This document shows, piece by piece, positions 1 to 11,719 of a stretch of 54,955 nt of DNA. The position numbers and the translations under genes were made by a program. The stretch is from a virus (Duplodnaviria; Caudoviricetes), in IMG/VR virus record IMGVR_UViG_3300021335_000021, positions 1 through 54,955 of that record; one strand, 5' to 3'. The notes beneath the pieces are model-generated. The model did no database searches and was not told the origin of the DNA. It saw nothing but the letters and a program-made list of their open reading frames with translations. Position 1 is the first letter of the stretch. Every line of letters begins with the position of its first letter.

Positions 1-346
1 TAATTTCTCCGAAATTTTCGTCAACTTCTTCGTCTGTTGCTTCGTCTACTTCTTCATCAGAGGCTTCGTCAACTTCTTCGTCTGTTGCTTCGTTAGTTTC
101 TTCGTCGTCTGAAGACTCATCTACTTCTTCATCTGAAGCTTCGTTAGTTTCTTCGTCATTTGACGCTTCATCTACTTCTTCATCTTTTGCTTCATCGACT
201 TCAAGATCTTCTAAATCTGTTTCTAGCATCTTTTCATAGATACCACGTGACTTTTCAATAACAAATTCGTGGAACAGTTCATCTGCGCCAGCACGGTCGT
301 TATTGACAAGTTTTTCGAGCATTTGCTCTAATTTATTGTCTGCCAT
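1..346 (-). CDS. Acidic prohead core/scaffold-like protein (partial, runs off window start)
   Basis: Not in ORF track. Read by hand from ATG at 346: MADNKLEQMLEKLVNNDRAGADELFHEFVIEKSRGIYEKMLETDLEDLEVDEAKDEEVDEAS... It has an AGGAGA SD and TAAATA upstream, is extremely D/E-rich, and lies downstream of the portal as T4 core genes do. Confidence 0.65.
   Translation of the reverse strand, partial: MADNKLEQMLEKLVNNDRAGADELFHEFVIEKSRGIYEKMLETDLEDLEVDEAKDEEVDEASNDEETNEASDEEVDESSDDEETNEATDEEVDEASDEEVDEATDEEVDENFGEI
17..200 (-). repeat. Degenerate ~24-nt coding tandem repeat (DEEVDEA[S/T] / DEETNEA)
   Basis: Exact 29-nt direct repeat ttcgtcaacttcttcgtctgttgcttcgt at 17-45 and 65-93, with further degenerate copies to ~200. 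Confidence 0.85.
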
Positions 347-391
347 TGTTTTCTCCTATATGTTTAATTAATATGTAAGGCTGTCTAGTAT

Positions 392-397
392 TATTTA
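392..397 (-). promoter_or_regulatory. gp55-type late promoter (TAAATA)
   Basis: TAAATA core of the T4 late promoter TATAAATA, intergenic, upstream of the ORF starting at 346. Confidence 0.6.
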
Positions 398-420
398 CAC
401 TATGTTTAATAAATGTACGG

Positions 421-458
421 AAAACGGCGTCAAAACGAATCGTTTAGTCGCAAACCGT
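421..458 (-). terminator. Possible intrinsic terminator/hairpin after the 199-aa gene
   Basis: Nested inverted repeats acgg/ccgt and aaacg-aat-cgttt, followed by a short T tract on the minus strand. Confidence 0.3.
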
Positions 459-1058
459 CTAAAAATCATAATATCTTTTAAACTCACTTACTGTTATGTG
501 AGATAAATTCGTACATTTCTTTAACTGTTTTGGTACAAAGTCGTCATTATCAGCTACAATCCTAATATATCTCTTACCTTGGTGTGCATCGCATGTTGAT
601 GCTGTTTGCCTTTCCCAGTTGCCGAAGTATGTTGCAGGTTCGCCTTGTTTCTTATAGTTATGTGTTCCTGCGTACAAGTTATTTACCTTACTACGGTTAC
701 CTTGTGAGTCTAATAATCCGTGAAAATCAAATCCTAGTATATAAATTGTATCGTGCGGGTGTGTACTTGCTAACCATAATGCTGTAGGGCCACTGCTCCA
801 ACCCTTGCTAGGTTGAAAATAATTAAATCCTTGAAAGGAATGAAACTGTTTGTTTGGATTTGTCCAAACTTCGTGTTCCATTTGCCATTTGCTTTGATTA
901 ATTTCAAGTATCATTTTTACATCAACAGCAACTAGGTAATGCGGTTCAAAATGTCTGAACATTGCATTACATGCATATACTTTACCGTAATTTTTAAGTG
1001 GATATAGGTCTATGTCTTTGCGGCTTTCGCCATTACCTATAACAAACGCTACAGTCAT
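459..1058 (-). CDS. CstII/Maf (DUF115)-like glycosyltransferase-fold protein
   Basis: N-terminal AFVIGNGES and later IYILGFDF resemble the IAGNGPS and IYLxGIDF motifs of GT42 sialyltransferase/Maf-type proteins. Confidence 0.55.
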   Translation of the reverse strand: MTVAFVIGNGESRKDIDLYPLKNYGKVYACNAMFRHFEPHYLVAVDVKMILEINQSKWQMEHEVWTNPNKQFHSFQGFNYFQPSKGWSSGPTALWLASTHPHDTIYILGFDFHGLLDSQGNRSKVNNLYAGTHNYKKQGEPATYFGNWERQTASTCDAHQGKRYIRIVADNDDFVPKQLKKCTNLSHITVSEFKRYYDF

Positions 1059-1069
1059 TAGTAGACATC

Positions 1070-1309
1070 CTATACTTGAGGTTGTGCTTGGATACCGTAC
1101 ATCTGACGGATGAATCCTAATTCTTTTTGCTTTTCTTCTTGGTGTAACTCTGATGCTTTGCGAGCTTTGTTTATTTGACGTAATGTTAATCGTGTTTTAC
1201 GTGTGTCATCACGATTTACAATGCTTTTATCATCTGTAGCATCGTAAGTCTTATCCTCAATGGGATCAATAGTTTCTTTATCAAAATAAAATAATTCTCT
1301 TAGTATCAT
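1070..1309 (-). CDS. Small head-module protein (79 aa), possibly prohead core component
   Basis: Start moved to ATG 1309 (MILRELFYF...) because a TAAATA lies 5 nt upstream and the longer ORF overlaps the portal. Located directly after the portal. Confidence 0.6.
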   Translation of the reverse strand: MILRELFYFDKETIDPIEDKTYDATDDKSIVNRDDTRKTRLTLRQINKARKASELHQEEKQKELGFIRQMYGIQAQPQV

Positions 1310-1314
1310 GTTAA

Positions 1315-1320
1315 TATTTA
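1315..1320 (-). promoter_or_regulatory. Late promoter TAAATA, 5 nt before ATG
   Basis: GATAAATA-TTAAC-ATG on the minus strand. Confidence 0.6.
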
Positions 1321-1322
1321 TC

Positions 1323-3062
1323 CTATTCGGTTGGAGGAGTTTCGCCTGCGCCACCTGCATCTGGTGTTGTTACTGATTCTGGTCCTCCAGTTTCGCCTGT
1401 GGCAACACCTTCTTCACCTTCGGGTGCAACATCTGCATCTGCTCCTAGATCACCTTCAATACCTGCTCCACTAATACCTGCTCCACGCATTTCTGCACTA
1501 GCATCAGTTGGTGCTGTTGACAATGTTTCGTCATTTTCTTCTTTCCAATAGCGTTCGTTATCTGCAATTTCTGAATCACTCATTCCTAAGAAACGTTTCA
1601 TTGCATATCTATTACTGATAAACGGTACAGCTTGTATCTGTGCAAAAGTACCGATACGCTGATTGTCTAATTCACTTTGTCTATAACTTGCAAAGTTTTG
1701 TGGCGGTTGAAATAACAAATCAAACATTGCAATGTCAATGTTAATACCTTTTTCTAATAGATAACGTTTGAATTCTTGGTTGAATACTTCAGCTATAAGG
1801 TTCTGTAAACGTTCGCAATACTTGTTAAAGCGTAGCTCTTGTATGTATGCAGTACCTACTCTGCCGTCGTTAAATGAGCTTTGACCTTCATCTTGTGCCG
1901 CGGCTGGTAAGTATGAACTTGGAATACGTAAACCTCTTACTAGTTTATTTGTAAAGTATTTTAAGTCATCAATCTCACCTAAGTTAGTACCACCAGGTAG
2001 TGTTTCAACTTTAGATCCACGTCCTTCTGCTGTTTGCGGAAAGAAATAATCTTCGTTAGTTGACAGAGGATTGTAAGCACTGTCAATAACACTTGTGCCG
2101 CCACCTGTTTTACTTGGAATACGTCTTTGATGTATTTCTGTTTTTACTCGCTCAACAAATTGCATAGCTAAGTGACTTGGCATGTTACCAACATCAACAT
2201 AAAATACTCTACGCTCTGGAGCTCTTTGTGTTCTGTAAATAATAATAGCATCTTCAAGTAATTCTTTTTGTTTATATACTTTGAATATGCCTTCTAATAG
2301 TGAATTACCAAACGGTGCATTGTTGTCTAAGCCTTCGCTCAAACTCATATGTACCATATGTTTTGCATCAATGGCATGTTCTTTCATTTTATCATGGCCA
2401 AAGCGTCCTGCACTTGCACCAGATGTTTGTGTGTTACCAACCATACCACGAACACCGCCAGTTAGATAACCATCTCCACCGCCTGTAGCATTTCCATTTG
2501 TAGTATATGGTGTTGTTGCAACGTTGTCAATAAAATTTAAATTAAGATCTTTAACAATATATTGTTCTGGTTTTTTACCTTCTGATTCGTTAACAATAAT
2601 ACTGCCAACTTTTGCTGGATCAACATGATGCCATTTAGTAGTTTCTGGATCTCTAATAAAGAAAGCATCACCATATTTAAAAACGTTACGCACAATTTTA
2701 AACATGCGTGTGCCAAAGTTATTAAGTTTAGTCCATTGTTGTAGATACTGTTCAAGAACTTTAATTTCTGAATTAGTAGCCGTCTTTTTAAAGTCGATAC
2801 TAAAACTTGTTTTGTTAATAGGATTTTGTTGCGAACAAAATTCAGCAAGGATATCAAGTGCGGCATTTACCTCACTGTCATTATCCATTGTGTTGTATTG
2901 TCCGTAACGCTCAACTCTATTAGGAGCGCCTGTGTATACATCAGGAAGAAAACTTGAATAGTTTGAACGTGCCGGTCCTGGCTGTGTGCCTTGACCCATA
3001 CTTAATGGACTGCTTGTTCCTGCTTGTCCTTCTACTGGTGTAAAATATCTTTTCCAACTCAT
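1323..3062 (-). CDS. gp20: Portal vertex protein (T4 gp20-like)
   Basis: EDAIIIYRTQRAPERRVFYVDVGNMP, EDYFFP and ETLPGG-LGEIDD match conserved T4 gp20 motifs. Confidence 0.95.
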   Translation of the reverse strand: MSWKRYFTPVEGQAGTSSPLSMGQGTQPGPARSNYSSFLPDVYTGAPNRVERYGQYNTMDNDSEVNAALDILAEFCSQQNPINKTSFSIDFKKTATNSEIKVLEQYLQQWTKLNNFGTRMFKIVRNVFKYGDAFFIRDPETTKWHHVDPAKVGSIIVNESEGKKPEQYIVKDLNLNFIDNVATTPYTTNGNATGGGDGYLTGGVRGMVGNTQTSGASAGRFGHDKMKEHAIDAKHMVHMSLSEGLDNNAPFGNSLLEGIFKVYKQKELLEDAIIIYRTQRAPERRVFYVDVGNMPSHLAMQFVERVKTEIHQRRIPSKTGGGTSVIDSAYNPLSTNEDYFFPQTAEGRGSKVETLPGGTNLGEIDDLKYFTNKLVRGLRIPSSYLPAAAQDEGQSSFNDGRVGTAYIQELRFNKYCERLQNLIAEVFNQEFKRYLLEKGINIDIAMFDLLFQPPQNFASYRQSELDNQRIGTFAQIQAVPFISNRYAMKRFLGMSDSEIADNERYWKEENDETLSTAPTDASAEMRGAGISGAGIEGDLGADADVAPEGEEGVATGETGGPESVTTPDAGGAGETPPTE

Positions 3063-3072
3063 ATTGTGTTCC

Positions 3073-5382
3073 TTATCCAGCCATTATATTGCCGTTCAAT
3101 GCTTTTACGGCTGTTGTGTTCTTTTTTGTTAATTCGATAAGCTGGACCATATTAGTATTTAACATCGCAAGCTCTGTTGCACTTGAAGAATTGGCTGGTG
3201 TTGTAGGTACTGTTGGTTTAATAGGTGTAACCTGTGACTGTTTTTCAACCTCTGCTTCGTCATCGCTAGAAAACGGATTCAATTTATTCCAAAAACCTCC
3301 ACCGTCTTTCTTCTTTGGTGTGGCCGTACCGCTTGTGGCACCTTCATCATCACCACCAAACCAATTAAATGGATTGAATACGCTGTTTTTGAACCAATCT
3401 TTTAAGTATGTCCACATATCAGATATTGCAGTTGTAACAGATTTTGTTAGAGCTCCTTCAAAGAATGCAAAATCAATTGCTACTACAGCCCCTAAGATTG
3501 CTCCAGCAATTAATGCTGGTAGAGATAATAGTGCTCCGCCGACTGCTGTTAACGCTGTACCAAGTGCTCCGGCTATAAAGCCTGTTGCCGCTGTTAATGC
3601 CGTAGTAGCGGCGGCCAATATTGTTGCACCAATAGTTGTAGCCATCCCAAGAATAGATGCTGTAATGCCCGCAATGAACGGGCCGCCTCCTAGTGCCGCT
3701 GTAATAGCAATTCCAAGTGACGCTACTGCCGCAATACCCCAATTTATTACCGTCTGACTTATATCACCAAACGCACTTGCAGGATCTGCCAAAAACTCTT
3801 CTGCAAACTTTTTAACTTTAGGTAAAATATTATCTACTAAGTATGTGCTAAACTCTAACAGTTTTGGCCACATTTTCTTAAATTGATCTCCGACATCTTG
3901 TAGAATCTGTTTCCCGTCAGTTTTCATCCAATTCCAAGCATCATTCATTGCTTTTTCAATAGTGCCTTTGTTGTCTTCAAATAATTGTGTTGCTGTTTCG
4001 TATGATGGAATTAAGTCTGCAATAGCATCTGTTGCTTCTTTAAATGCTGTTGTGTTTGTAACAAAAGCCTGTGATGCTCCAGACAACTCTTCTAGTGTAG
4101 TAACACTATTTCCAATAGCCGTTGTAAGTTTGTCATATTCTGTTTGTTGTTTTGTAACTGAACCTTCAGTAGCTTCAACAGCCATTGCTAATTGTCCGCC
4201 CATTGTCAACAAACTACCAAATGATCCGCCAGCGGAAAGTGCGGCGTCAACACCACCTAGTTTAAATTTCTGTGCTAAGCCTCCTAATTCATCACCAACA
4301 TCTTTAACAAAGTTGTTCATCTGTTCAGGACTCATATTTTCGATATCTTTAGCAAAAGCCTTAAACACATCACTGTTAGCCATTAACTGTCGTGTCACCG
4401 GATCGTTTGCTATGCCGTCTGCCATATCTACAAGTGCCGCTTCAAACTCAGGTGATATTTTGTTTGCTAGTGATAAGTTATTTCTAAATTGATTCAATTG
4501 ATCGCCAGTCATTGAAGACATTGCTACTTGTCTACGTATGTCTGTATTCTTAGCTCTTTGTTCTTCTTCAATTTGTTTACGACTTTTACCTGTTAATTTT
4601 GATATCTTATCAAGTTCTAGTGAATACTTCGCTGATCCTTCCGCTATTTGAGAATCAGTCATATATCTATCTCTACCTGTAGATACTAATAATTCGTTGT
4701 AGCTGATTAGGTTTTCGTTTAATTCTTCTGTAGTTAAACCCATTCCTAATAGTTGTCTACCTAGATTGCCTGTACGCATCTCTTTTGAAAGCCTACCAAA
4801 TCTACGTGTACCTTCTTGTACATTTCCACCGAACATTCTTAGTCCTTCGGATTCACTTGCAATAACTTTAGCAAGAGTCTGCATAGATAATCCTGATGCG
4901 CCTGCAACCTGTGTAATCTCAAACATACTATTACCAAAGCCTGCACCAACTGATGACAGTTCTTTGTACATAGTCATTTGATTTTCAATTATTCCAGTAA
5001 TAATATTAAGTCCAGGAACATTTTGAGTAAACTCGTGTATACTAGTTTTACCTTGGAGTAATCCAGTTGCCATTCCGGTAACTGCACCAACTGCTCCGCT
5101 AACTGCCGCTACTAATCCGTTAATAAGGCCGCCAGCTACAGATGCCGCCGCTGATCCTAATTTACCTACTGATCCTGCTGTTTTTTCAGATGTTTTACCT
5201 ACGGCGTCAAGTCCTTTGTTGGCTTTGTCGGTATTCAGGTTACCGCCATTATTGCCGCCTTGTCCTGTTATTGATCCAGTTCTACCACCTAGTGCTTTAA
5301 GTATCTGTCGTAGAGTTGCTTCTGAAGCCGCATTTTGTGCTTCGACTTCACCAATTCCGGGGATGTCTATTCTTACTGCCAT
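3073..5382 (-). CDS. Tape measure / baseplate hub-like protein (gp29 analogue)
   Basis: 769 aa, Ala/Gly-rich and helical, with a long uncharged hydrophobic segment near the C-terminus. Adjacent to a gp26-like chaperone gene. Confidence 0.7.
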   Translation of the reverse strand: MAVRIDIPGIGEVEAQNAASEATLRQILKALGGRTGSITGQGGNNGGNLNTDKANKGLDAVGKTSEKTAGSVGKLGSAAASVAGGLINGLVAAVSGAVGAVTGMATGLLQGKTSIHEFTQNVPGLNIITGIIENQMTMYKELSSVGAGFGNSMFEITQVAGASGLSMQTLAKVIASESEGLRMFGGNVQEGTRRFGRLSKEMRTGNLGRQLLGMGLTTEELNENLISYNELLVSTGRDRYMTDSQIAEGSAKYSLELDKISKLTGKSRKQIEEEQRAKNTDIRRQVAMSSMTGDQLNQFRNNLSLANKISPEFEAALVDMADGIANDPVTRQLMANSDVFKAFAKDIENMSPEQMNNFVKDVGDELGGLAQKFKLGGVDAALSAGGSFGSLLTMGGQLAMAVEATEGSVTKQQTEYDKLTTAIGNSVTTLEELSGASQAFVTNTTAFKEATDAIADLIPSYETATQLFEDNKGTIEKAMNDAWNWMKTDGKQILQDVGDQFKKMWPKLLEFSTYLVDNILPKVKKFAEEFLADPASAFGDISQTVINWGIAAVASLGIAITAALGGGPFIAGITASILGMATTIGATILAAATTALTAATGFIAGALGTALTAVGGALLSLPALIAGAILGAVVAIDFAFFEGALTKSVTTAISDMWTYLKDWFKNSVFNPFNWFGGDDEGATSGTATPKKKDGGGFWNKLNPFSSDDEAEVEKQSQVTPIKPTVPTTPANSSSATELAMLNTNMVQLIELTKKNTTAVKALNGNIMAG

Positions 5383-5411
5383 TTATTATATACTCACTTT
5401 ATAAAATACCA

Positions 5412-5417
5412 TAAATA
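5412..5417 (+). promoter_or_regulatory. Late promoter for the gp26-like gene
   Basis: CATAAATA upstream of the AGGAG SD and ATG 5461. Confidence 0.65.
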
Positions 5418-5439
5418 CTATTACGAAATATGTTAATAC

Positions 5440-5445
5440 TATTTA
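5440..5445 (-). promoter_or_regulatory. Late promoter for the tape-measure/portal operon
   Basis: CTAAATA on the minus strand, facing the 5412 promoter. Confidence 0.6.
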
Positions 5446-5460
5446 GCAGGAGATATAAAC

Positions 5461-6369
5461 ATGGTAGATAATAACTTCCCACCAATGGGGGGACAGCAAG
5501 GTATTCCTATGGCACAACCGCAAGGTAATCCATTAGCGAAGCACCTTAGACAACCAAAGATCTACATCAAGTTGCCAAGCAATGGAGAATATTGGCCAGG
5601 AAAGTCTTTGGAAAAGACGGAAAACGGTGAATACCCAGTTTACGCAATGACGGCAAAGGATGAGATTACGTTTAAAACTCCCGATGCGTTATTAAACGGA
5701 CAAGCAACAGTTGATGTTATTCAAAGTTGTTTGCCAAACATTAAAGATGCATGGCAAACACCATCTATTGATATAGATACAATCTTAATTGCAATTAGAC
5801 GTGCAAGTTATGGTGAAAAAATGGCAATGACTGCATCTATTCCAAAAACAGACATTACTAAAGACTTTGAATTGAATTTACAAACACTCTTTGACAATTA
5901 CATGTCAAAAGAATTTGTTCATACTTTTCAGATTGATGGATTTAAAGTTCAGATACAACCACTAAACTATAAAACTATTACTGAAGGAATGATCAAAGCG
6001 TTTGAAGAACAGAGAATTTTTGCTGTTATTGATGATAATACTATTCAAAATCAAGAAAAGTTACAGAAGTTCCAATCAAGTTTTTCTAGACTAACTGAGT
6101 TAAACGTACAAACACTTATTAAAAGTGTTGTAGCAATTCAACCAGATGGCTCTGATCAAGCTGTTGTTAATCCAGCTCATATCAAAGAGTTCATTGAAAA
6201 CACTGATGCAAAGATTTTTAATCAAATTAAAGAGCATATTGAATCTCAGAAAAAACAATTTGAACAACAACCACTTTCAGTAGAAGCTACTGAAGAGGAA
6301 ATCGAAGCAGGTGCTGATAAGACTTATTCTATACCTATTGTATTCGATCAAGGCAATTTTTTCGACTAA
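5461..6369 (+). CDS. gp26: Baseplate hub assembly chaperone (gp26-like)
   Basis: PKIYIKLPSNG...MTAKDE...IDIDTILIAIRRASYGE pattern typical of gp26-family proteins; ends in NFFD. Confidence 0.75.
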   Translation: MVDNNFPPMGGQQGIPMAQPQGNPLAKHLRQPKIYIKLPSNGEYWPGKSLEKTENGEYPVYAMTAKDEITFKTPDALLNGQATVDVIQSCLPNIKDAWQTPSIDIDTILIAIRRASYGEKMAMTASIPKTDITKDFELNLQTLFDNYMSKEFVHTFQIDGFKVQIQPLNYKTITEGMIKAFEEQRIFAVIDDNTIQNQEKLQKFQSSFSRLTELNVQTLIKSVVAIQPDGSDQAVVNPAHIKEFIENTDAKIFNQIKEHIESQKKQFEQQPLSVEATEEEIEAGADKTYSIPIVFDQGNFFD

Positions 6370-6417
6370 GGATCTTAACGTGGAGCCTCGAAAAAATCCA
6401 AGACGAGGTTAAGGTCC
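6357..6417 (+). promoter_or_regulatory. Putative -1 programmed ribosomal frameshift signal
   Basis: In-frame slippery heptamer T TTT TTC (6357-6363), 6-nt spacer, then a 10-bp stem GGATCTTAAC (6370-6379) / GTTAAGGTCC (6408-6417) with one G-U pair. Confidence 0.7.
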
Positions 6418-6593
6418 TAGAGGGTGAGGTCAAAGAAATTAAGAATGAAATGATTCGTATCTCATGGTGGATGCGTGGCAGTATTCAACTCAATGATGCT
6501 TATGATTTAGATATCGACGACCGTGAAATTATTGCTAATTTAATTAAAGAAAATATGGAGTCTGCTAAAAAGTCAGGTATGCCGTTTTGGTAG
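6360..6593 (+). CDS. gp51-like / frameshift extension ORF (-1 frame of gp26-like gene)
   Basis: Not in ORF track. Open from the slippery site: FRLRILTWSLEKIQDEVKVLEGEVKEIKNEMIRISWWMRGSIQLNDAYDLDIDDREIIANLIKENMESAKKSGMPFW*. The first ATG is at 6450. Confidence 0.7.
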   Translation, partial: FRLRILTWSLEKIQDEVKVLEGEVKEIKNEMIRISWWMRGSIQLNDAYDLDIDDREIIANLIKENMESAKKSGMPFW

Positions 6594-6596
6594 GAT

Positions 6597-7502
6597 TTAC
6601 TTTTTAGAATTTGCTCTTATTCGATCCATGCCAGCGGAGTAGTTTGCTCTGCTTCTTTCATCTGGACTTACTTTTCCATCGTTGTTTACATCTGCTGGAT
6701 CTTTTTTAGCTTTTTTCTTAGTTACAGTATAACCGTTTGCTTCTAGATATTTTTTTGCTGATTCGACATCCATTGTAGGCGTAGCCATATCTTTAGCATC
6801 TGCTTTGCTAGTATCTTTTGCTTTGCTAGTATCTTTTGCTTTGCTAGTTTTTTTAGTAGCAACTGTTGTATCTGCATCTGCAGGAGCATCACCGTATGAA
6901 CTTTTTGATACTCTACTACCCATTTGTTTTTGAAAACCTTGTTGTACAAAACGTTTAATTACTTTTTGAACTTGACCTTTTGATAGCTCAACATCAGCTT
7001 CCATTATCTGTGCTTCACTATATATACTACTATTCATTTTTCCACCTGACAGATCTAAATTGCCTTGTGCGTCTGCTCCAGTAAGTCCTGATGCTTGTGG
7101 AGATAATTTAGCTTTAAGTTTACTTGCCGCGCCTGTAACAGCGGCCGCCCCAGATTTTGCCGCGCCTTTTCCAGATTTATAACTTTTAGATGCTGTTTTT
7201 TTCAGTGAACGCATTATGCCTGGTTCAGCATTAATATATGACATTACTGCACTTGGCTTACTTACAAATCCTTTTGCAACTAAAAACTTTGCTAAACCTT
7301 TTGCAGTCATACCTTTCATTTTAGGATCTTGTTTGCTTACAGCATAAAAGTCCTTATAAATGTTTGATACTTCTTTATCTAATTCAACGTCTAGCTGTGC
7401 GGCTTTGCCTCCAGCTGTGTTTTTACCTAGTGTTCTTTTTAAAAATCTAATAGGACCTTCATCAACTTGCTTAGATTCTGTTAAAATGTCGTATACTTTC
7501 AT
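6597..7502 (-). CDS. Basic, Lys/Ala-rich putative internal head protein
   Basis: N-terminus MKVYDILTE resembles T4 capsid-targeting leaders (MKTYQEFIAE). Perfect TATAAATA upstream; C-terminal DVNNDGKVSPDE motif. Confidence 0.55.
   Translation of the reverse strand: MKVYDILTESKQVDEGPIRFLKRTLGKNTAGGKAAQLDVELDKEVSNIYKDFYAVSKQDPKMKGMTAKGLAKFLVAKGFVSKPSAVMSYINAEPGIMRSLKKTASKSYKSGKGAAKSGAAAVTGAASKLKAKLSPQASGLTGADAQGNLDLSGGKMNSSIYSEAQIMEADVELSKGQVQKVIKRFVQQGFQKQMGSRVSKSSYGDAPADADTTVATKKTSKAKDTSKAKDTSKADAKDMATPTMDVESAKKYLEANGYTVTKKKAKKDPADVNNDGKVSPDERSRANYSAGMDRIRANSKK
6801..6848 (-). repeat. 18-nt tandem repeat encoding KDTSKA
   Basis: tgctttgctagtatcttt twice (6801-6836) plus a partial third copy. 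Confidence 0.9.
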
Positions 7503-7523
7503 AGTTTAGCTCCCGATTAATTA

Positions 7524-7531
7524 TATTTATA
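7524..7531 (-). promoter_or_regulatory. Late promoter TATAAATA (perfect T4 consensus)
   Basis: tatttata on the plus strand, upstream of the GGAG SD and ATG 7502. Confidence 0.8.
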
Positions 7532-7568
7532 CTTTTGAACACAGAAATACTTAGTAAATAGACTACAC

Positions 7569-7754
7569 ATGATAACAAGATATCGAATACTAGACAATCT
7601 CGATAATGAGATTGACGTTGTAAACAGTATTGACGAAGTACAGCAATATATAGAAACAATGCGTGATACAAACCCTCATCTACAACTCAGATACGAATCA
7701 TTCGAAGTTAGTAGTGTTAAGTCAGGTTTTGGAAGAGATCCTGATCTTCACTAA
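7569..7754 (+). CDS. Small hypothetical protein (61 aa)
   Basis: ORF preceded by TAAATA (7555-7560), with plausible codon usage. Confidence 0.6.
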   Translation: MITRYRILDNLDNEIDVVNSIDEVQQYIETMRDTNPHLQLRYESFEVSSVKSGFGRDPDLH

Positions 7755-7763
7755 ATAACTTCT

Positions 7764-7835
7764 ATGTGTTCGCCCATATTCTATTTTTTAGTTTTAACAG
7801 TAGTATTAATGTGGATGATATATAAGAACAACTAA
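7764..7835 (+). CDS. Putative 23-aa hydrophobic membrane peptide
   Basis: MCSPIFYFLVLTVVLMWMIYKNN*, with TAAATA (7752-7757) 6 nt upstream. Confidence 0.4.
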   Translation: MCSPIFYFLVLTVVLMWMIYKNN

Positions 7836-8302
7836 GATTTGTTACTTCGTAACAAATTGTTTTCGCTTACGCTCAAACTATAGCACTTCGTTTGTTGATA
7901 GAAGTAATAGATATGAATTAAAGCAATATTACGTAGTAATATTGTAATTGCTTCATGTAGATTGTTTCAGTCAGACGGAACCTACTAACTGGTTCCATCT
8001 AATCTTGGTCTTCATGTGAGTTCGTCACAGCCGAGATTCGGAAGTAGGTATTTTCACTGTTCAATGGGCTCTGACCTTTCCCAACCTACGTCGACGTCAC
8101 GTATTTCTACGCTATCCCCCGCTTCGTTCCTATTGCTAAGGGGTTTTTTTGAACATTGTGGTTCTTGGCTAACAGCATCTAGCCTATATTGATCGTTATG
8201 GTTCGTATGAATCAATATGTTTCGTGTGTGGTTCTCACGCCACCCTTTACACAGCGGAATTATCGATCTGGCCCGCTATCCTTATGTGCTGTATTGGCTT
8301 GC
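7836..8302 (-). ncRNA. Candidate structured non-coding RNA (unassigned family)
   Basis: The only long ORF-free stretch in the window. About 45% GC over 7961-8300 (hand count) versus AT-rich flanks, and at least 8 stem-loops. Stem 7971-7982/7991-8002 has two G-U pairs only on the minus strand. Strand is not certain. Confidence 0.55.
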
Positions 8303-8725
8303 CTATAATGTTTTTAAGTGTTCTTTTAGAATTTTTGAACCGCCTACACGTACATTAATGATACCGTTGTAGTAATCATCTGTTTCTAGTACTCTGCGTT
8401 CAAACTGTTCTCGTGCCTCTAAGTAACTTGCAATGCCTCTGCTTGGACAATAATGTAATATTTCTCTAGTAAACTTGTCTTCGCCTAGTTGTGTAACATC
8501 AGCCTGTAGTCTATCGCTGGATCCCCAGTAATCTCTCCAGTCTGATTCTTTTGTTCCACGTCTTTTATTTTTTTTGCCTTTTAGCGGTGGCTTCGTTGTT
8601 TTGAATTTTGCTAGTTTCTTGCCTACGTACTTCATGCCATTGACTTTATTTGTTATCAAGTAGACAAATGCTTCTACACCGTCAGGTATTTCTTCTACAT
8701 TTTCACCTTGATAAGTCCATTGCAT
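8303..8725 (-). CDS. Minimal GIY-YIG family (Seg-like) endonuclease
   Basis: AFVYLITNKVNGMKYVGKK (GIY...YIG equivalent), YWGSS, conserved E (YLEARE) and YYNG. Only 140 aa. Confidence 0.8.
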   Translation of the reverse strand: MQWTYQGENVEEIPDGVEAFVYLITNKVNGMKYVGKKLAKFKTTKPPLKGKKNKRRGTKESDWRDYWGSSDRLQADVTQLGEDKFTREILHYCPSRGIASYLEAREQFERRVLETDDYYNGIINVRVGGSKILKEHLKTL

Positions 8726-8730
8726 ATTGG

Positions 8731-8736
8731 TACTTA
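8731..8736 (-). promoter_or_regulatory. Late promoter variant TAAGTA, 5 nt before the GIY-YIG ATG
   Basis: GGTAAGTA-CCAAT-ATG has the same spacing as the TAAATA sites at 1315 and 20281. TATAAGTA also occurs at 45499. Confidence 0.45.
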
Positions 8737-8743
8737 CCGTTGC

Positions 8744-8944
8744 CTATGTATCTGGGGCCTCTTTCTTGGAATTATGCTTGTGATGTATTTCGTCCATACG
8801 CTGTTTAGCTAGGCTACGTATCTCTCGTAACCATTTTCTGCTTTCTCTATGTGTTCGTACAGAATTACGGGCCTCAAACTTCTCGTTTGCCTTAAAGTAT
8901 GCCATATATGCCTTGGTCAATTTATCGTGTGTATCGTCATTCAT
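8744..8944 (-). CDS. Small basic helical protein (possibly Hc1/histone-like DNA-binding)
   Basis: 66 aa, RESRKWLREIRSLAKQR. Start overlaps the end of gp46. Confidence 0.55.
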   Translation of the reverse strand: MNDDTHDKLTKAYMAYFKANEKFEARNSVRTHRESRKWLREIRSLAKQRMDEIHHKHNSKKEAPDT

Positions 8945-10712
8945 TGTGTATTTCTACATCGTTCTCATATGAGGTAAAGCCATTTTCCTTTATTACTTTG
9001 AGAACGTGTGTTACTCTTCCTACTAGTTCATCTTTATGGGATATGAGATATACATTTTTCTGTCTTTCTCTACCCATTTTCTTTAGAATAGCCAAACTGT
9101 TTTCAACTCCGCTAGTATCCATACCTGAATCAATCAACTCATCAATAAACAATAGATTGATATTTTGATATAAACTTTCCCAAACATCACGGAATGCAAA
9201 GCTCATACCAAGTATAAGTCTGTTACGCTCACCTCTTGACAAATTGTCAAAATCTAAATCTTGTCCTAATTGTGTAATTTCAACTGACAAGTCGTTTTGG
9301 AATACAACACTATGTGGTAATCCAAGTTTATCAAGATAGTTAGTAAGCCTATTGTTTAGATATGCTAAATTCTGATCAATAATCTTTTTACGAATAAAAC
9401 TGTCTTTGTTTGTAAGCAGTTTTAACATAAAGTCCTGATGGTCTTTTAAACTTGTTAAGTTGTTTACTGTATCCCAGTTAATTTCTTGAATAGCAGTTGT
9501 GTTTAATTCATCAATCTGTTCTTGATAAGGATCAACTTCTGTCTTTGCACGACTTAATGCTTCTTGTAGTTGTGATACATTTTGTTTATGATCGTATACT
9601 TCTTTAAGAGTTTCATAGAACGTTGTAGGCTTGCCGTTGATATCCCCAATGTCACTAAGTGACGTTGTTACATCTAAAACTTTATCCCCTACTTCTTTTT
9701 GATATGCTATAGCATCTTCAAGTTCTTTTTTCTTTTTAACTGCAAGTTCTTGTTTTTTCTCGTCATGTAGCTCTTGTCCACAAGTATGACATGTTCCTTG
9801 ATCTAAGTTTTCTGCGTCTTTTTTTGCTTTTTCTACAGAATTGTCTGCACGTACTAGTGCTGGCTCTAGTGTGCTTAATTCTTTTTTAAGAGCCGAAATA
9901 GCATTATTTTTTTCTTCCCAACTAGACAGTTGTTCGTGTTTGTCTAATTCATTTTCTACATCTAAGTGTTCTAACTCGTCAATTGATCGTTCTAGTTTAG
10001 CAATGTCTTCTTTTTGTTTTGTATTCCATACACTTTGTTTTGTTTGCAAACTACGTACAGTTTCACCAATACGTGAATTACTAGATTCGATAGCATTTAT
10101 ACGAGCAGTTTCGTCTGTAATTGCTTCTCGTGTTTGCCTTACTTTATCTTTTAGTACTTCTGCTTTTTCAGAAAGTATTGTAATACCAAGTAACTGCTCA
10201 ATAATATCCTTTTGATCGTTTACACGCATACTTAAGAACGGTTCTGTGTATGTGTTTAGTGCAACAATATGCTTAAACATATTGTGTGACATACCTAATA
10301 GACTTATAATGTCTTCTTGTGTTTTACGTGAATCGCCTTGCGACTCATCTGTCATTTCTTGTTCTTGTCCATCTACATAAAACTTTAATACATTAGGACC
10401 ACGTCCTCTTTCAATCTTATAATCTCGTCCATCTTTTTCAAAAGAGAGCGTAACTAACATACCTTTGTTGTTAGTTTTATTAATTAAGTTATTACGCTTA
10501 ATATTTGTTAAAGCAAGCCCGTAAAGGGCATAACTTAGTGCATTTATAATAGTAGTCTTACCTGTACCATTACGTGATCCACTGTCGTCACCACCTTGGT
10601 CAAGGTTTTCTCCTAACACAAGTGTTAATTGTTGCTTATCAAAATCAACTGCTTGGGTTTGATTACCCACACTCATGAAGTTCTTAACGGTTAAACTTTT
10701 TATCTTAATCAT
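8937..10712 (-). CDS. gp46: Recombination endonuclease ATPase subunit (gp46/SbcC/Rad50)
   Basis: Walker A GSRNGTGKTT, coiled coil, CHTC zinc hook, LSRGE signature, Walker B LLFIDE and ISHK. Confidence 0.95.
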   Translation of the reverse strand: MIKIKSLTVKNFMSVGNQTQAVDFDKQQLTLVLGENLDQGGDDSGSRNGTGKTTIINALSYALYGLALTNIKRNNLINKTNNKGMLVTLSFEKDGRDYKIERGRGPNVLKFYVDGQEQEMTDESQGDSRKTQEDIISLLGMSHNMFKHIVALNTYTEPFLSMRVNDQKDIIEQLLGITILSEKAEVLKDKVRQTREAITDETARINAIESSNSRIGETVRSLQTKQSVWNTKQKEDIAKLERSIDELEHLDVENELDKHEQLSSWEEKNNAISALKKELSTLEPALVRADNSVEKAKKDAENLDQGTCHTCGQELHDEKKQELAVKKKKELEDAIAYQKEVGDKVLDVTTSLSDIGDINGKPTTFYETLKEVYDHKQNVSQLQEALSRAKTEVDPYQEQIDELNTTAIQEINWDTVNNLTSLKDHQDFMLKLLTNKDSFIRKKIIDQNLAYLNNRLTNYLDKLGLPHSVVFQNDLSVEITQLGQDLDFDNLSRGERNRLILGMSFAFRDVWESLYQNINLLFIDELIDSGMDTSGVENSLAILKKMGRERQKNVYLISHKDELVGRVTHVLKVIKENGFTSYENDVEIHNE

Positions 10713-11719
10713 AGTTCGTCATATATTCCTAATAGTAACTTCTTGTCGTAGTTTTGTGTATCCAATGCAGTAATTTCTTTAGTAACAATTTCATCTACAC
10801 TTTCAAATGTACTAATATCGATGTCTGTGTGTATTTCTTCGTCTTGCTGACTAGGAATTAGTGTAATTTCTCTGCAATCATATTCATTGATAAATGTTTC
10901 TTTAATAAAACTTGCTTCTTCATAACTAATTGGAAGATCAAGAGTTACTCTAAGATACATTTTGTTTTTAAGTAGTTTGTCTTTTTCGTCTAGTAATTGA
11001 CTCAGTTTAACTGTTCGATACTTAGGACAGTCTAACCAATCAATATATTGTGGTTCTTTGTTATTTTCTTTATCAAGTATCATCATTCCACGTTTATCAT
11101 CCCATGCATCTGCATAGTTGTGTGGAAAAGCATTACCCATATAGTGTACTGCACCTTGTACTTGACGTTTGTGGAAATGTCCACTAAACACATAATCTTG
11201 ATGTTTGAAATGTTCAGCTTTTAGTTCACCGTGATCAGGCATTTGCACCATTGCGTTCATATAGAAACTAGGCAGTTCAAAGTGACCAAACATATATTTT
11301 GTTTTTATGCTACTAATCTTCTTCCATTCTTCACCGACAAGCCAAGGAACTAATGCAACATCATCTTCAACTAATATTTCGTCTACATATGTAATACCTG
11401 GAATATGTTTACCAAACTCTACACTGTAAACATCGCGTTTGTCTTTGTAGTACAAATCGTGATTACCTGCAAAGAAGTAAAACTTATCAAATGCCGCACC
11501 TAACTTTTCTAGACAACGTGTAGTTGCATCTAGTGTTTGTACATTAATTGTATTTCTATTGTGATGCCAGTCACCACAAAAGATACCGGTTTCACAACCG
11601 TTAGCTTTTGCTTGTTCAATAAACCAATCTACAAAGTCTTCACAATCTTGTAGGTGTAGTCTACTATTCGACTTCAGTCCTAGGTGAATATCTGTAAACA
11701 CCGCCGCTTTTTTAAACAT
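10709..11719 (-). CDS. gp47: Recombination endonuclease nuclease subunit (gp47/SbcD/Mre11)
   Basis: Metallophosphoesterase motifs DIH, GDWHH, GNHD and GHFH; ATGA overlap with gp46. Confidence 0.95.
   Translation of the reverse strand: MFKKAAVFTDIHLGLKSNSRLHLQDCEDFVDWFIEQAKANGCETGIFCGDWHHNRNTINVQTLDATTRCLEKLGAAFDKFYFFAGNHDLYYKDKRDVYSVEFGKHIPGITYVDEILVEDDVALVPWLVGEEWKKISSIKTKYMFGHFELPSFYMNAMVQMPDHGELKAEHFKHQDYVFSGHFHKRQVQGAVHYMGNAFPHNYADAWDDKRGMMILDKENNKEPQYIDWLDCPKYRTVKLSQLLDEKDKLLKNKMYLRVTLDLPISYEEASFIKETFINEYDCREITLIPSQQDEEIHTDIDISTFESVDEIVTKEITALDTQNYDKKLLLGIYDEL

What the first reader, a model, noticed from the sequence alone, without database searches (positions are those of the whole stretch)
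7836..8736. Minimal GIY-YIG nuclease followed directly by a ~465-nt structured non-coding element: candidate nuclease-RNA system
Seen: the only long ORF-free stretch in a gene-packed window starts at the GIY-YIG stop codon and is ~45% GC over 7961-8300 (hand count). It is tiled by stems: 7971-7982/7991-8002 (two G-U pairs on the minus strand), 8001-8008/8031-8038 enclosing 8015-8019/8025-8029, 8044-8049/8084-8089 enclosing 8065-8068/8080-8083, 8117-8120/8140-8143, 8167-8171/8180-8184, 8186-8193/8211-8218 and 8253-8257/8273-8277. The protein is a 140-aa catalytic domain with a very basic insert (KFKTTKPPLKGKKNKRRGTK) and its own late-type promoter. Known: GIY-YIG homing endonucleases such as I-TevI and Seg proteins normally carry C-terminal DNA-binding modules, which are absent here. 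Inference: the co-transcribed RNA could provide scaffold or specificity (an RNP, possibly RNA-guided), or it is an unclassified large phage ncRNA. I do not recognise it as a known family. One stem (8001/8031) favours the plus strand.
Basis: partly seen in the sequence, partly recalled or inferred. Interest (0 to 1): 0.88.

Follow-up and report, generated by a model that had tools for sequence, protein, structure and literature searches.

The report
New structured RNA beside phage nuclease
The gene-free stretch after a small GIY-YIG nuclease gene in this marine giant-phage fragment encodes a large folded RNA that matches no catalogued RNA family, and the RNA appears to be a gene of its own rather than a partner of the nuclease.

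Summary
Window 7755-8302 is the longest ORF-free stretch. On the minus strand it carries a conserved RNA of about 390 nt (8302 to about 7915), with conserved elements continuing to 7837.

Ninety-five distinct relatives support the fold by covariation: a long-range helix H1 that crosses other pairings, and hairpins H2, H3, H8 and H9. G-U pairs fix the strand. Rfam 15, ARAGORN and the phage record collection give no match.

The 140-aa protein is a full SegE-type GIY-YIG catalytic domain with no DNA-binding tail.

The nuclease-RNA reading is not supported:
- Sister RNA types at the same locus occur without the nuclease gene in 11 of 109 informative loci, and with it inverted in 4.
- The nuclease family mostly occurs elsewhere without the RNA.
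- RNA divergence tracks the phage backbone gene gp46 (rho 0.53), not the nuclease (rho 0.20).
- No variable guide-like segment exists.

One feature is unexplained. Two exposed 7-nt motifs are identical to each other in 122 of 124 loci, across nine different versions.

Best reading: an undescribed trans-acting structured RNA of uncultured marine phages of about 355 kb, with a mobile Seg-like nuclease gene parked beside it.

The parts
8303..8725 (-). 140-aa stand-alone GIY-YIG nuclease gene (SegE-type catalytic domain only); stop codon TAG at 8303-8305
   Evidence: Pfam PF19835, profile 1-123/123, E 3e-33. PHROG phrog_447 over full length. Y22, Y33, G35, E103 and N120 are invariant in 49 relatives.
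8155..8302 (-). RNA 5' domain ('A1' form): four hairpins, starting directly after the nuclease stop codon. This module is swapped for a shorter one in some close relatives.
   Evidence: alifold plus pair counts on 25 relatives show compensatory changes in all four hairpins. 85 of 104 distinct 5' regions are of this form. L003-L005 carry the other form.
7951..8154 (-). Conserved RNA core (covariance model R1, 212 positions)
   Evidence: R1 scores 221.5 bits here. 95 distinct homologues; 94-97% of cells paired; covariation score 0.30-0.32 against 0.12-0.14 in shuffles and 0.07 or less when slid.
8150..8154 (-). H1, 5' strand (GTTCA) of the long-range helix
   Evidence: All 5 pairs show changes on both sides, with 3-5 pair types each; 99.6% paired.
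8059..8063 (-). H1, 3' strand (TGAAC). It lies between the two strands of H4, so H1 and H4 (or the alternative pairing B1) cross as a pseudoknot.
   Evidence: An outer extension (CAC/GTG here) was seen by eye.
8116..8143 (-). H2 hairpin (CCCCT..GC / GC.GGGGG) with a conserved 12-nt loop holding the invariant GGAACGA
   Evidence: 6 of 7 pairs change on both sides. Invariant loop columns are listed.
8099..8112 (-). H3, a hairpin of variable length (GAAA loop here). Relatives have GNRA-type loops or inserts of up to about 125 nt.
   Evidence: 3 of 3 base pairs change on both sides. Length variation is shown.
8044..8089 (-). Invariant centre: GTAGGT (8084-8089) ... TGGG/CCCA (H5) ... ACCTAC (8044-8049). 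GTAGGTTG can pair either with ACCTAC (H4) or with CAATCTAC at 7957-7964 (B1).
   Evidence: A 25-mer is exact in 119 or more IMG/VR stretches. H4 is 100% paired but varies on one side only. B1 is 99.6% and B2 100% paired, again with one-sided changes only.
8001..8038 (-). Hairpin H9 (outer) plus H6 (inner, variable), presenting motif copy 1 in its apical region
   Evidence: H9 is 89% paired, with C-G/U-A exchange at one pair.
8010..8021 (-). Twin motif, copy 1 (ACTCACATGAAG)
7974..7999 (-). H8 hairpin (GATGGAACC / GGTTCCGTC) with a variable loop
   Evidence: About 99% paired; U.G and G.U pairs fit the minus strand only.
7951..7962 (-). Twin motif, copy 2 (ATCTACATGAAG), single-stranded, just 5' of the last hairpin
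   Evidence: Its 7-mer equals that of copy 1 in 122 of 124 loci, over 9 variants. It is the top mutual-information partner of copy 1.
7924..7944 (-). AT-rich 9-bp hairpin followed by CTTTAATT: a terminator-like 3' end (inferred, not shown)
   Evidence: A hairpin is present at this place in relatives with different sequences. Only 46 of 97 pass a crude hairpin-plus-U-tail test. The terminator scan does not call it.
7837..7877 (-). Further conserved elements after the hairpin: TTTGAGCG-TAA-GCGAAAAC (7859-7877) and a 9-bp palindromic hairpin (7837-7857). Whether they belong to the RNA is open.
   Evidence: Conserved in types A and B, with a compensatory change in the mini-stem (GC..GC versus GT..AC), by eye.

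Best explanation
The stretch is a gene for a large non-coding RNA with several folded domains. The RNA is about 390 nt (8302 to about 7915, minus strand), with conserved elements continuing to 7837. It belongs to an uncultured clade of marine phages whose genomes are estimated at about 355 kb.

Shown:
- The sequence is more conserved than the neighbouring protein genes.
- It folds into covarying helices on the minus strand, including a long-range helix that crosses other pairings.
- It is single-copy in three large records.
- It sits at the end of the gp47-gp46-(66-aa gene)-GIY-YIG gene row, facing a convergent baseplate-hub gene block.

Inferred:
- In this window it is transcribed by read-through from the nuclease gene, since I found no promoter or terminator between them. 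It probably ends at the AT-rich hairpin at 7924-7944.
- It acts in trans as a folded RNA. Its two identical exposed motifs (8010-8021 and 7951-7962) probably bind two sites or two copies of one co-evolving partner, which is still unknown.
- The GIY-YIG gene is a Seg-type nuclease gene with only the catalytic domain and its own horizontal history. It occupies the variable slot between gp46 and the RNA gene and is not an obligate partner of the RNA.
For: - Conservation: the RNA is 84-90% identical where the nuclease gene DNA is 75-77% identical. A 25-mer is exact in 119 or more IMG/VR stretches, and in 3 MAG contigs that carry the same phage genes.
- Structure: 19 of 43 pairs and 17 of 45 pairs change on both sides. 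0 of 500 shuffles reach the observed covariation score. Slid controls give 0.071 or less, against 0.30-0.32 observed.
- Strand: there are many G.U and U.G pairs, for example 65 and 95 of 95 sequences at single pairs. These would be mismatches on the other strand.
- The 5' domain also covaries.
- No frame is conserved: the longest open stretch falls in all six frames across the 95 sequences.
- It matches no known family: Rfam and ARAGORN.
- Independence from the nuclease:
  - 11 of 109 informative loci with the related loop motif lack the GIY-YIG gene, and 4 have it inverted. Two of these (L251, L219) were read and carry the full element with twin motifs.
  - Spearman correlations of identity to the window (n=73): RNA versus gp46 0.53, RNA versus GIY 0.20, GIY versus gp46 0.06.
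  - Model R1 is single-copy in 3 large records and absent from two records that carry other RNA types.
- Twin motifs.
- Presence in RNA libraries: contigs of 3 of 4 metatranscriptome runs lie on the element and bridge the nuclease stop codon. This shows presence only.
Against: - No transcript ends, strand or abundance could be read. All runs were contigs, so expression as a discrete RNA is not shown.
- In the window's own RNA type the nuclease gene is upstream in every locus that can be judged: 135 of 143, with the other 8 cut off. A functional tie in this type is therefore not excluded.
- The loci without GIY-YIG were found with a 20-nt loop motif of the sister types, not with the window's type. 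Homology between types rests on shared modules seen by BLAST clustering and by eye, not on a common model.
- The correlations compare every locus with one reference and are not phylogenetically independent.
- A strong sigma-70-like promoter in front of the RNA is present in only 5 of 104 distinct 5' regions. That is not clearly above shuffles (mean 2.6, maximum 7), so most copies have no recognised promoter of their own.
- The partner of the twin motifs is unknown. No complementary sequence was found nearby.
Confidence: 0.6

Rival explanations
1. Nuclease-RNA particle. The RNA binds the catalytic-domain-only GIY-YIG protein and supplies the missing target recognition, with the twin motifs perhaps acting as a short double guide.
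For: - The protein lacks any DNA-binding module, while longer relatives carry NUMOD3.
- The RNA begins at the stop codon and would be co-transcribed.
- The nuclease gene is upstream in 135 of 143 type-A loci, with the rest cut off, and in 94 of 109 informative loci of the sister types.
- The twin motifs change in concert, as specificity elements might.
- There is a precedent for an orphan RNA motif downstream of a nuclease gene turning out to be a guide: RAGATH-18 and IS607 TnpB (PMC11061315; search listing and abstract only).
Against: - The RNA superfamily occurs without the gene (11 loci) or with it inverted (4 loci).
- The same nuclease, at 75-83% identity, occurs in other contexts without the RNA (clusters 4-6). 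So do Melnitz at 72% and phiN3 at 47% identity.
- The family has 2035 representatives, mostly 130-170 aa.
- The RNA does not co-diverge with the nuclease.
- There is no hypervariable unpaired segment. The motifs are 7-12 nt, and their complement is not enriched in the window.
Confidence: 0.1
2. Homing neighbour. The GIY-YIG gene is a free-standing homing-type selfish gene that spreads by cutting near, or in, the very conserved RNA gene of phages that lack it. The adjacency would then be a by-product of homing and co-conversion, and the RNA has its own unrelated function.
For: - GIY-YIG identity to the window is uncoupled from the backbone. Examples: GIY 91% with gp46 60% in L169; GIY 77-81% with gp46 52-54% in L148, L152 and L168; rho 0.06 overall.
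- There is presence/absence and orientation polymorphism.
- Mosaic joints lie at the stop codon and inside the RNA gene: L003 is 94% identical up to 8299, unalignable over 8149-8298, then 92% identical again.
- Other nuclease-type genes occupy the same slot, for example a PD-(D/E)XK gene in L251.
- Relatives with NUMOD3 tails look like classical Seg enzymes.
Against: - The gene is fixed in every judgeable locus of the window's RNA type, which is unusual for a selfish gene.
- The protein has no recognisable DNA-binding domain for site choice.
- No empty allele in an otherwise identical context was found.
Confidence: 0.2
3. A cis-acting end of the operon. The structure would be a 3' untranslated region that stabilises, terminates or processes the gp47-gp46-GIY transcript, possibly by self-cleavage.
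For: - Its position is at the end of a gene row, facing convergent genes.
- It ends in a hairpin.
- Most copies have no promoter of their own.
Against: - It has about 75 invariant positions, a pseudoknot, GNRA loops and several domains. That is far more than a terminator or stabiliser needs.
- Some relatives carry a near-consensus promoter directly in front of it: TTGACA-17-TATACT in L010 and L011, and others seen by eye in L012, L022, L082 and L251.
- No known self-cleaving ribozyme family matches.
Confidence: 0.06
4. A decayed or unusual group I-type ribozyme linked to a homing endonuclease gene, or a DNA-level element (an origin, with the repeats as iterons) rather than an RNA.
For: - The order of elements faintly recalls a group I core as I remember it: H1 5' strand, an A-rich joiner, H2, H3, H4 5' strand, a small hairpin, H1 3' strand, H4 3' strand.
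- Phage group I introns often carry GIY-YIG genes (recalled).
- The twin direct repeats could be protein-binding DNA sites.
Against: - Rfam's group I model gives no match, even at E up to 10.
- There are no flanking exons, and no hairpin where I remember P8 to be.
- G.U-specific covariation argues for RNA-level, not DNA-level, selection.
Confidence: 0.04

Closest known systems
Guide RNAs encoded next to transposon nucleases (TnpB reRNA including RAGATH-18, IscB omega-RNA/HEARO)
   Same: A conserved structured RNA lies directly beside a small nuclease gene and would be co-transcribed with it. An orphan RNA motif of this kind later proved to be a guide (PMC11061315, abstract only).
   Different: - The nuclease here is GIY-YIG, not RuvC/HNH.
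- There is no Rfam match to HEARO or any related family.
- No variable guide segment and no transposon ends were seen.
- The RNA occurs without the nuclease and the nuclease without the RNA.
Free-standing Seg-type GIY-YIG homing endonucleases of T4-like phages, such as SegB beside the tRNA genes (recalled, not checked in a call)
   Same: - The protein has a SegE-type GIY-YIG domain.
- The gene sits between conserved genes, next to a conserved RNA gene.
- Its history is discordant with the backbone.
   Different: - It has no C-terminal DNA-binding module, whereas relatives have NUMOD3.
- The gene is fixed in the window's RNA type.
Large orphan structured RNAs of bacteria and phages (GOLLD, ROOL, OLE, raiA)
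   Same: It is several hundred nucleotides long, with many invariant positions, pseudoknotted helices, GNRA loops and variable peripheral stems. It is phage-borne and its function is unknown.
   Different: It matches none of these families in Rfam 15. It is smaller than GOLLD and ROOL (recalled sizes). It carries twin motifs that change in concert.
Group I introns that carry GIY-YIG genes (e.g. I-TevI in T4 td; recalled)
   Same: A GIY-YIG gene lies next to an RNA with crossing long-range helices and an A-rich joiner.
   Different: Rfam RF00028 does not match. There are no exons. The nuclease gene lies outside the fold. There is no hairpin where I remember P8 to be.
Candidate structured RNAs predicted from IMG/VR (DNAVirus_X set, PMC10690425)
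   Same: The source collection is the same. Single hairpins of this element may be among the 8495 candidates.
   Different: Those candidates are 29-151 nt long, with a median of 65 (passages read). The main text does not use the term GIY-YIG at all (search listing), so it describes no such element beside a GIY-YIG gene. The supplements that list the motifs were closed, so overlap cannot be excluded.

Membership tests
GIY-YIG nuclease, SegE-type catalytic domain (Pfam PF19835) | Full-length match to the family profile above its curated cut-off | tested here: met
   115.1 bits against a cut-off of 25; profile 1-123 of 123.
GIY-YIG nuclease, SegE-type catalytic domain (Pfam PF19835) | Conserved Tyr (GIY), Tyr-x-Gly (YIG), Glu and Asn of the active site. 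The roles of these residues are recalled from I-TevI. | tested here: met
   Y22, Y33, G35, E103 and N120 are invariant and R87 nearly so, in 49 sequences.
Seg-type homing endonuclease (complete enzyme) | C-terminal DNA-binding module (NUMOD3 or a helix-turn-helix type) | tested here: not met
   The protein is 140 aa and Pfam finds nothing beyond residue 123. Longer relatives P0116 and P0124 carry NUMOD3.
Seg-type homing endonuclease (complete enzyme) | Site-specific cleavage of alleles that lack the gene | not testable with these tools
   This needs cleavage or mixed-infection assays.
RNA-guided nuclease system (OMEGA/TnpB/IscB type) | The RNA and the nuclease gene co-occur obligatorily | tested here: not met
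   11 of 109 informative loci lack the gene and 4 have it inverted. 9 of 75 nuclease loci lack the RNA.
RNA-guided nuclease system (OMEGA/TnpB/IscB type) | A variable, unpaired guide segment at one end of a constant scaffold | tested here: not met
   Variable parts are paired stems and loops. The 3' end is a hairpin. The only changing single-stranded parts are the 7-nt twin motifs.
RNA-guided nuclease system (OMEGA/TnpB/IscB type) | Protein-RNA binding and RNA-dependent cleavage | not testable with these tools
   The complex predictor takes proteins only. No job was sent.
Group I intron | Match to the family's covariance model (Rfam RF00028) | tested here: not met
   No match at E up to 10 on 7500-8800, nor at E up to 1 on 7 related loci.
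Group I intron | Interrupts a host gene, with splice sites and exons | tested here: not met
   No ORF of 60 aa or more lies on either side in continuity. No tRNA was found.
tRNA / tmRNA | Detected by ARAGORN | tested here: not met
   0 genes in the window.
Any Rfam 15 family (including GOLLD, ROOL, OLE, raiA, HEARO, ribozymes, riboswitches) | Score at or above the gathering threshold | tested here: not met
   0 matches in the whole window. Only chance-level snoRNA-type matches at E 0.95-9.8.
Structured non-coding RNA (generic) | Compensatory base changes beyond controls, strand-specific G-U pairs, and no conserved reading frame | tested here: met
Structured non-coding RNA (generic) | A discrete transcript with defined ends | tested here: inconclusive
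   Only assembled contigs of RNA libraries were available. They lie on the element but show no ends or strand.

The most novel reading that the evidence does not exclude
The RNA is the missing specificity subunit of the catalytic-domain-only GIY-YIG enzyme. Its two identical, concertedly changing 7-12-nt motifs would act as a double guide or address, making this the first RNA-directed GIY-YIG nuclease. The loci without the nuclease gene would then be decayed copies or copies served in trans.
Probability: 0.07. Interest if true: 0.95.

Novelty: new variant of a known kind. Interest (0 to 1): 0.7.

Why it matters
Large RNAs with complex folds are rare, and past examples have proved to be ribozymes, guides or cage-forming assemblies. 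This one stands out on several counts:
- It is widespread.
- Parts of it are invariant across phages whose gp46 is only 52-60% identical to the window's.
- It is confined to uncultured marine phages of about 355 kb.
- It is absent from Rfam 15.

Its twin exposed motifs are kept identical to each other through nine sequence versions. That signature is unusual and implies a co-evolving partner, which gives a concrete handle for experiments.

The finding also marks the slot between gp46 and the RNA gene as a hot spot for nuclease-type selfish genes. Finally, it corrects a tempting 'RNA-guided GIY-YIG' reading.

Tried and rejected
- tRNA/tmRNA: none found.
- Known RNA family: none in the window at gathering scores, none relevant up to E 10 on 7500-8800, and none on 7 loci with the other RNA types.
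- DNA similarity to 50,697 phage records: no match in near or distant mode.
- Closest cultured relatives found:
  - Melnitz, by the GIY-YIG protein (72%). It has a 148-nt gap after its gene; the gap does not align to the element by BLAST or nhmmer and shows no R1 hit.
  - PA5oct, by gp46 (48%). Its gene row ends after gp46, with neither the nuclease nor the RNA annotated.
- Decayed C-terminal domain or small protein gene: rejected. No frame is conserved, and indels are not multiples of three.
- T4 endonuclease II-like identity of the protein (my recollection that it is a roughly 136-aa stand-alone GIY-YIG enzyme): no PDB chain matches by sequence or by profile, so this is not supported by sequence.
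- Third segment complementary to the twin motifs: none at a consistent place within -1.5/+1.2 kb of 105 loci. In the window, the 9-mer is not enriched (3 found against 1.6 expected) and no gene start carries the complement.
- Own promoter in front of the RNA: only 5 of 104 distinct 5' regions, within the range of shuffles.
- T4-type late promoter upstream of the nuclease gene: absent.
- Terminator: the consensus scan does not call the last hairpin, and my crude test passes 46 of 97.
- My first hairpin for 8031-8041 (CCGA/TCGG): dropped. 57 of 95 sequences are unpaired at its third pair.
- Choice between H4 and the long-range pairing B1/B2: cannot be made, because all these columns vary on one side only.
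- RNA libraries: 4 runs laid, all as contigs. Parts of the stretch without cover in some runs say nothing. The high summed depth at 7936-8002 in run X8 may come from many related phages.
- Complex prediction: not used, because it takes no RNA.
- The metagenome-contig scan was not spent.
- Supplements of PMC10690425, which list its RNA candidates, were closed. Overlap with that catalogue is untested.
Full report
WHAT IS THERE

The window is a 54,955-base fragment of a virus record that CheckV rates 15% complete.

Around the finding, the minus strand carries homologues of T4 gp47 (10709-11719) and gp46 (8937-10712), then a 66-aa basic ORF (8744-8944), then a 140-aa ORF (8303-8725). The plus strand carries a convergent block with a baseplate-hub homologue (5461-6369).

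Between the 140-aa ORF and a 61-aa plus-strand ORF lies 7755-8302. At 548 nt it is the longest stretch of the window with no ORF of 60 aa or more. Its GC content is 0.445 over 8000-8299, against about 0.3-0.37 around it.

THE PROTEIN

The 140-aa protein matches Pfam SegE_GIY-YIG over the whole profile (positions 1-123 of 123, E 3e-33). It also matches PHROG 447 over its full length. The PHROG label 'NAD synthetase' does not fit the Pfam assignment.

The family is large. There are 2035 representatives at E 1e-3 or better, and most of the best 150 are 130-170 aa long. In 49 aligned members, Y22, Y33, G35, S61, W63, Y66, S69, E103 and N120 are invariant.

A few longer relatives carry a NUMOD3 DNA-binding motif. 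One is fused to an Acb1 anti-CBASS domain.

The basic stretch, however, belongs to the family profile and is not an insert. No PDB chain matches by sequence or by profile.

THE RNA IS REAL

Eighty IMG/VR loci that encode relatives of the protein were fetched. In 27 of them the DNA downstream is homologous to 7900-8310. That DNA is more conserved than the gene itself. In L014, for example, the RNA region is 86.5% identical and the gene 76.4%.

In 185,579 prokaryote genomes it occurs on only 3 MAG contigs, and those carry the same phage genes.

I built a covariance model, R1, from 31 short-form sequences. It aligned 99 copies, 95 of them distinct. On that alignment:
- 94.4% of cells pair under my first structure, and 97.2% under the revised one.
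- The covariation score is 0.30-0.32. Shuffles give 0.12-0.14, and 0 of 500 reach the observed value. Sliding the partners gives at most 0.07.
- Two caveats apply: the alignment was fitted to the model, and the sequences are related. The slid controls and the many pair types are the stronger arguments.

Helix by helix:
- H1 (8150-8154 with 8059-8063): all 5 pairs change on both sides, with 3-5 pair types each.
- H2 (8116-8143): 6 of 7 pairs change on both sides.
- H3 (8099-8112): 3 of 3 pairs change on both sides. Its length ranges from a GNRA-capped mini-hairpin to inserts of about 125 nt.
- H9 (8031-8038 with 8001-8008): shows a C-G/U-A exchange.
- H8 (7974-7999): kept through G-U intermediates.

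The four hairpins of the 5' domain (8155-8302) also covary in 25 relatives.

The many G.U pairs fix the RNA to the minus strand, the same strand as the nuclease gene. No reading frame is conserved.

H1 encloses the 5' strand of the invariant GTAGGT. Its partner lies outside H1, so the fold is pseudoknotted. That partner is either ACCTAC (H4, 8044-8049) or CAATCTAC (B1, 7957-7964). The choice cannot be made, because these columns vary on one side only.

KNOWN FAMILIES

ARAGORN finds nothing. Rfam 15 gives no match in the window at gathering scores. On 7500-8800 it gives only chance-level matches up to E 10, and nothing relevant on loci with the other RNA types. The phage record collection has no similar DNA.

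Four literature searches turned up no description of such an RNA. The IMG/VR-based catalogue PMC10690425 lists candidates of 29-151 nt (passages read). Its supplements were closed, so pieces of this element may be listed there.

CONTEXT AND RELATIVES

Every type-A locus has the same order: gp47, gp46, usually the 66-aa gene, the GIY-YIG gene, the RNA, a variable stretch that puts the 47-aa ORF 0.2-4.4 kb beyond the RNA's invariant 25-mer, then the convergent 47-aa ORF and the baseplate-hub gene.

R1 is single-copy in three large records. CheckV completeness values (236 kb is 66%; 268 kb is 75%) imply genomes of about 355 kb. The nearest cultured phage by gp46 is the jumbo phage PA5oct, at 48% identity. 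There the gene row ends right after gp46.

Of the 75 nuclease loci with enough downstream sequence:
- 66 carry a long conserved ORF-poor element after the gene. They fall into three BLAST clusters of 42, 16 and 8 loci.
- These clusters share modules: a 5' hairpin module, a TTCCG joiner, twin motifs and a closing hairpin (by eye).
- The remaining 9 loci have the nuclease in other contexts, without gp46 upstream. They form three further clusters; in representatives of each, read by eye, I saw no such element.

IS THE RNA TIED TO THE NUCLEASE?

For a tie: searching by the RNA's 25-mer alone, 135 of 143 loci have the nuclease gene upstream on the same strand, with 146-586 nt between its end and the 25-mer. 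The other 8 loci have at most 368 nt of upstream sequence. Some contigs were fetched twice, so the 143 are not all independent.

Against a tie:
- A 20-nt loop motif of the sister types retrieves 120 loci. Of these, 94 have the gene upstream, 11 are too short to judge, 4 have it inverted, and 11 have none.
- Two of the gene-less loci were read. They carry the whole element, including twin motifs. The genes upstream in such loci are unrelated: unknowns, a methyltransferase-like protein, a PD-(D/E)XK endonuclease and an exoribonuclease-like protein.
- Across 73 loci, identity to the window gives Spearman rho 0.53 for RNA versus gp46, 0.20 for RNA versus nuclease, and 0.06 for nuclease versus gp46. 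This is a one-reference comparison, so it is crude.
- Close relatives of the window (L003-L005; nuclease 94-99%, gp46 91-92%) carry a different 5' domain. The joints lie at the stop codon and near 8148.

Together these results indicate an RNA gene that travels with the phage backbone. The nuclease gene beside it has its own horizontal history.

THE UNEXPLAINED PART

Two 12-nt motifs are involved: ACTCACATGAAG in the apical region of hairpin H9/H6 (8010-8021), and ATCTACATGAAG in the single strand before the last hairpin (7951-7962).

Their 7-nt cores are identical to each other in 122 of 124 loci, and this holds across nine different cores. For each variable column of one copy, the best mutual-information partner in the whole alignment is the same column of the other copy. 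The sister RNA types show the same behaviour, by eye.

No complementary segment exists nearby or in the window.

The simplest reading is two equivalent sites for one partner that co-evolves with them. That partner could be an RNA or a dimeric protein, encoded elsewhere in the phage or in the host. Short-tract gene conversion or a DNA-level role cannot be excluded.

EXPRESSION

Twenty-three public runs hold part of the stretch. Fifteen are on record as RNA, and the 23 come from 14 studies.

Four RNA runs were laid, all as contigs. In three of them, contigs lie on the element and cross the nuclease stop codon: X1 8066-8386, X3 8118-8311 and X8 108-8453 read as 8108-8453. This shows presence in RNA libraries. 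It does not show transcription, strand, ends or level.

In the window no promoter-like or terminator-like site separates the gene from the RNA, so read-through is inferred. The lineage of L010 and L011 has TTGACA-17-TATACT in front of the RNA. That is too rare in type A (5 of 104 distinct 5' regions) to generalise.

VERDICT

The 'unclassified large phage ncRNA' reading is supported. The 'nuclease-RNA system' reading is not supported, though it is not excluded for the window's own RNA type.

My best explanation, at confidence 0.6, is a trans-acting, pseudoknotted phage RNA with a bivalent recognition motif, beside a mobile Seg-like nuclease gene. Function remains inferred.

The element matches no Rfam family, and my searches found no description of it.

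Noticed in passing
window 24344-39442 (+): A single ORF of 5032 aa, by far the largest in the window. It lies in a run of long plus-strand ORFs that look like a structural module.
   Followed up: no
window 7837-7877 (-); also after the RNA in L027, L033, L035 and L037: After the RNA's closing hairpin comes a conserved TTTGAGCG-NNN-GCGAAAAC mini-hairpin with GNRA-like loops and one compensatory variant (GT..AC). A perfect 9-bp hairpin follows it. This could be the 3' end of the RNA, a second small element, or the terminator of the convergent genes.
   Followed up: partly
window, whole; 7524-7531 (-): The T4 late-promoter consensus TATAAATA is depleted: 3 copies against 10.7 expected. One copy sits 22 nt upstream of the 301-aa gene at 6597-7502.
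   Followed up: partly
protein P0107 (294 aa, from the representative library): A SegE-type GIY-YIG domain is fused to an Acb1 anti-CBASS domain (Pfam PF23474, E 1.7e-25).
   Followed up: no
L083 (Crocinitomicaceae MAG contig, 72.8 kb); L084 and L085 (Neomarinimicrobiota MAG contigs, 335 and 153 kb): The only prokaryote-genome hits of the RNA's 25-mer lie on MAG contigs that carry the phage genes gp46, gp47 and GIY-YIG (L083, L085) or GIY-YIG alone (L084). These are probably phage contigs binned into MAGs. At 335 kb, one may be a near-complete phage genome.
   Followed up: partly
L068:4240-4340; L022 and L012, the first 200 nt or so after the nuclease stop: Some relatives have tandem CA-rich repeats of about 20 nt (CAGACACNAAGTCAAAC; ACTTAAACTAAAAACTTAAAC) between the nuclease gene and the RNA. 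In L012 and L022 these come after a near-consensus sigma-70 promoter.
   Followed up: no
L235, L282, L311, L312 (oriented loci): In four loci a GIY-YIG homologue (58-61% identical) lies directly upstream of the sister-type RNA but on the opposite strand. This suggests an independent insertion.
   Followed up: partly
window 7936-8002, run X8: The summed contig depth in one marine metatranscriptome peaks at 164 over the 3' part of the RNA, against 8-45 elsewhere. The peak may reflect many related phages sharing this invariant part rather than high expression.
   Followed up: no
window 8744-8944 (-): A 66-aa Lys/Arg-rich ORF sits between gp46 and the nuclease gene and has no Pfam or PHROG match. 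tblastn found it upstream in nearly all type A and B loci that reach far enough, and in none of the type C and D loci. It is a possible nucleic-acid-binding protein.
   Followed up: partly
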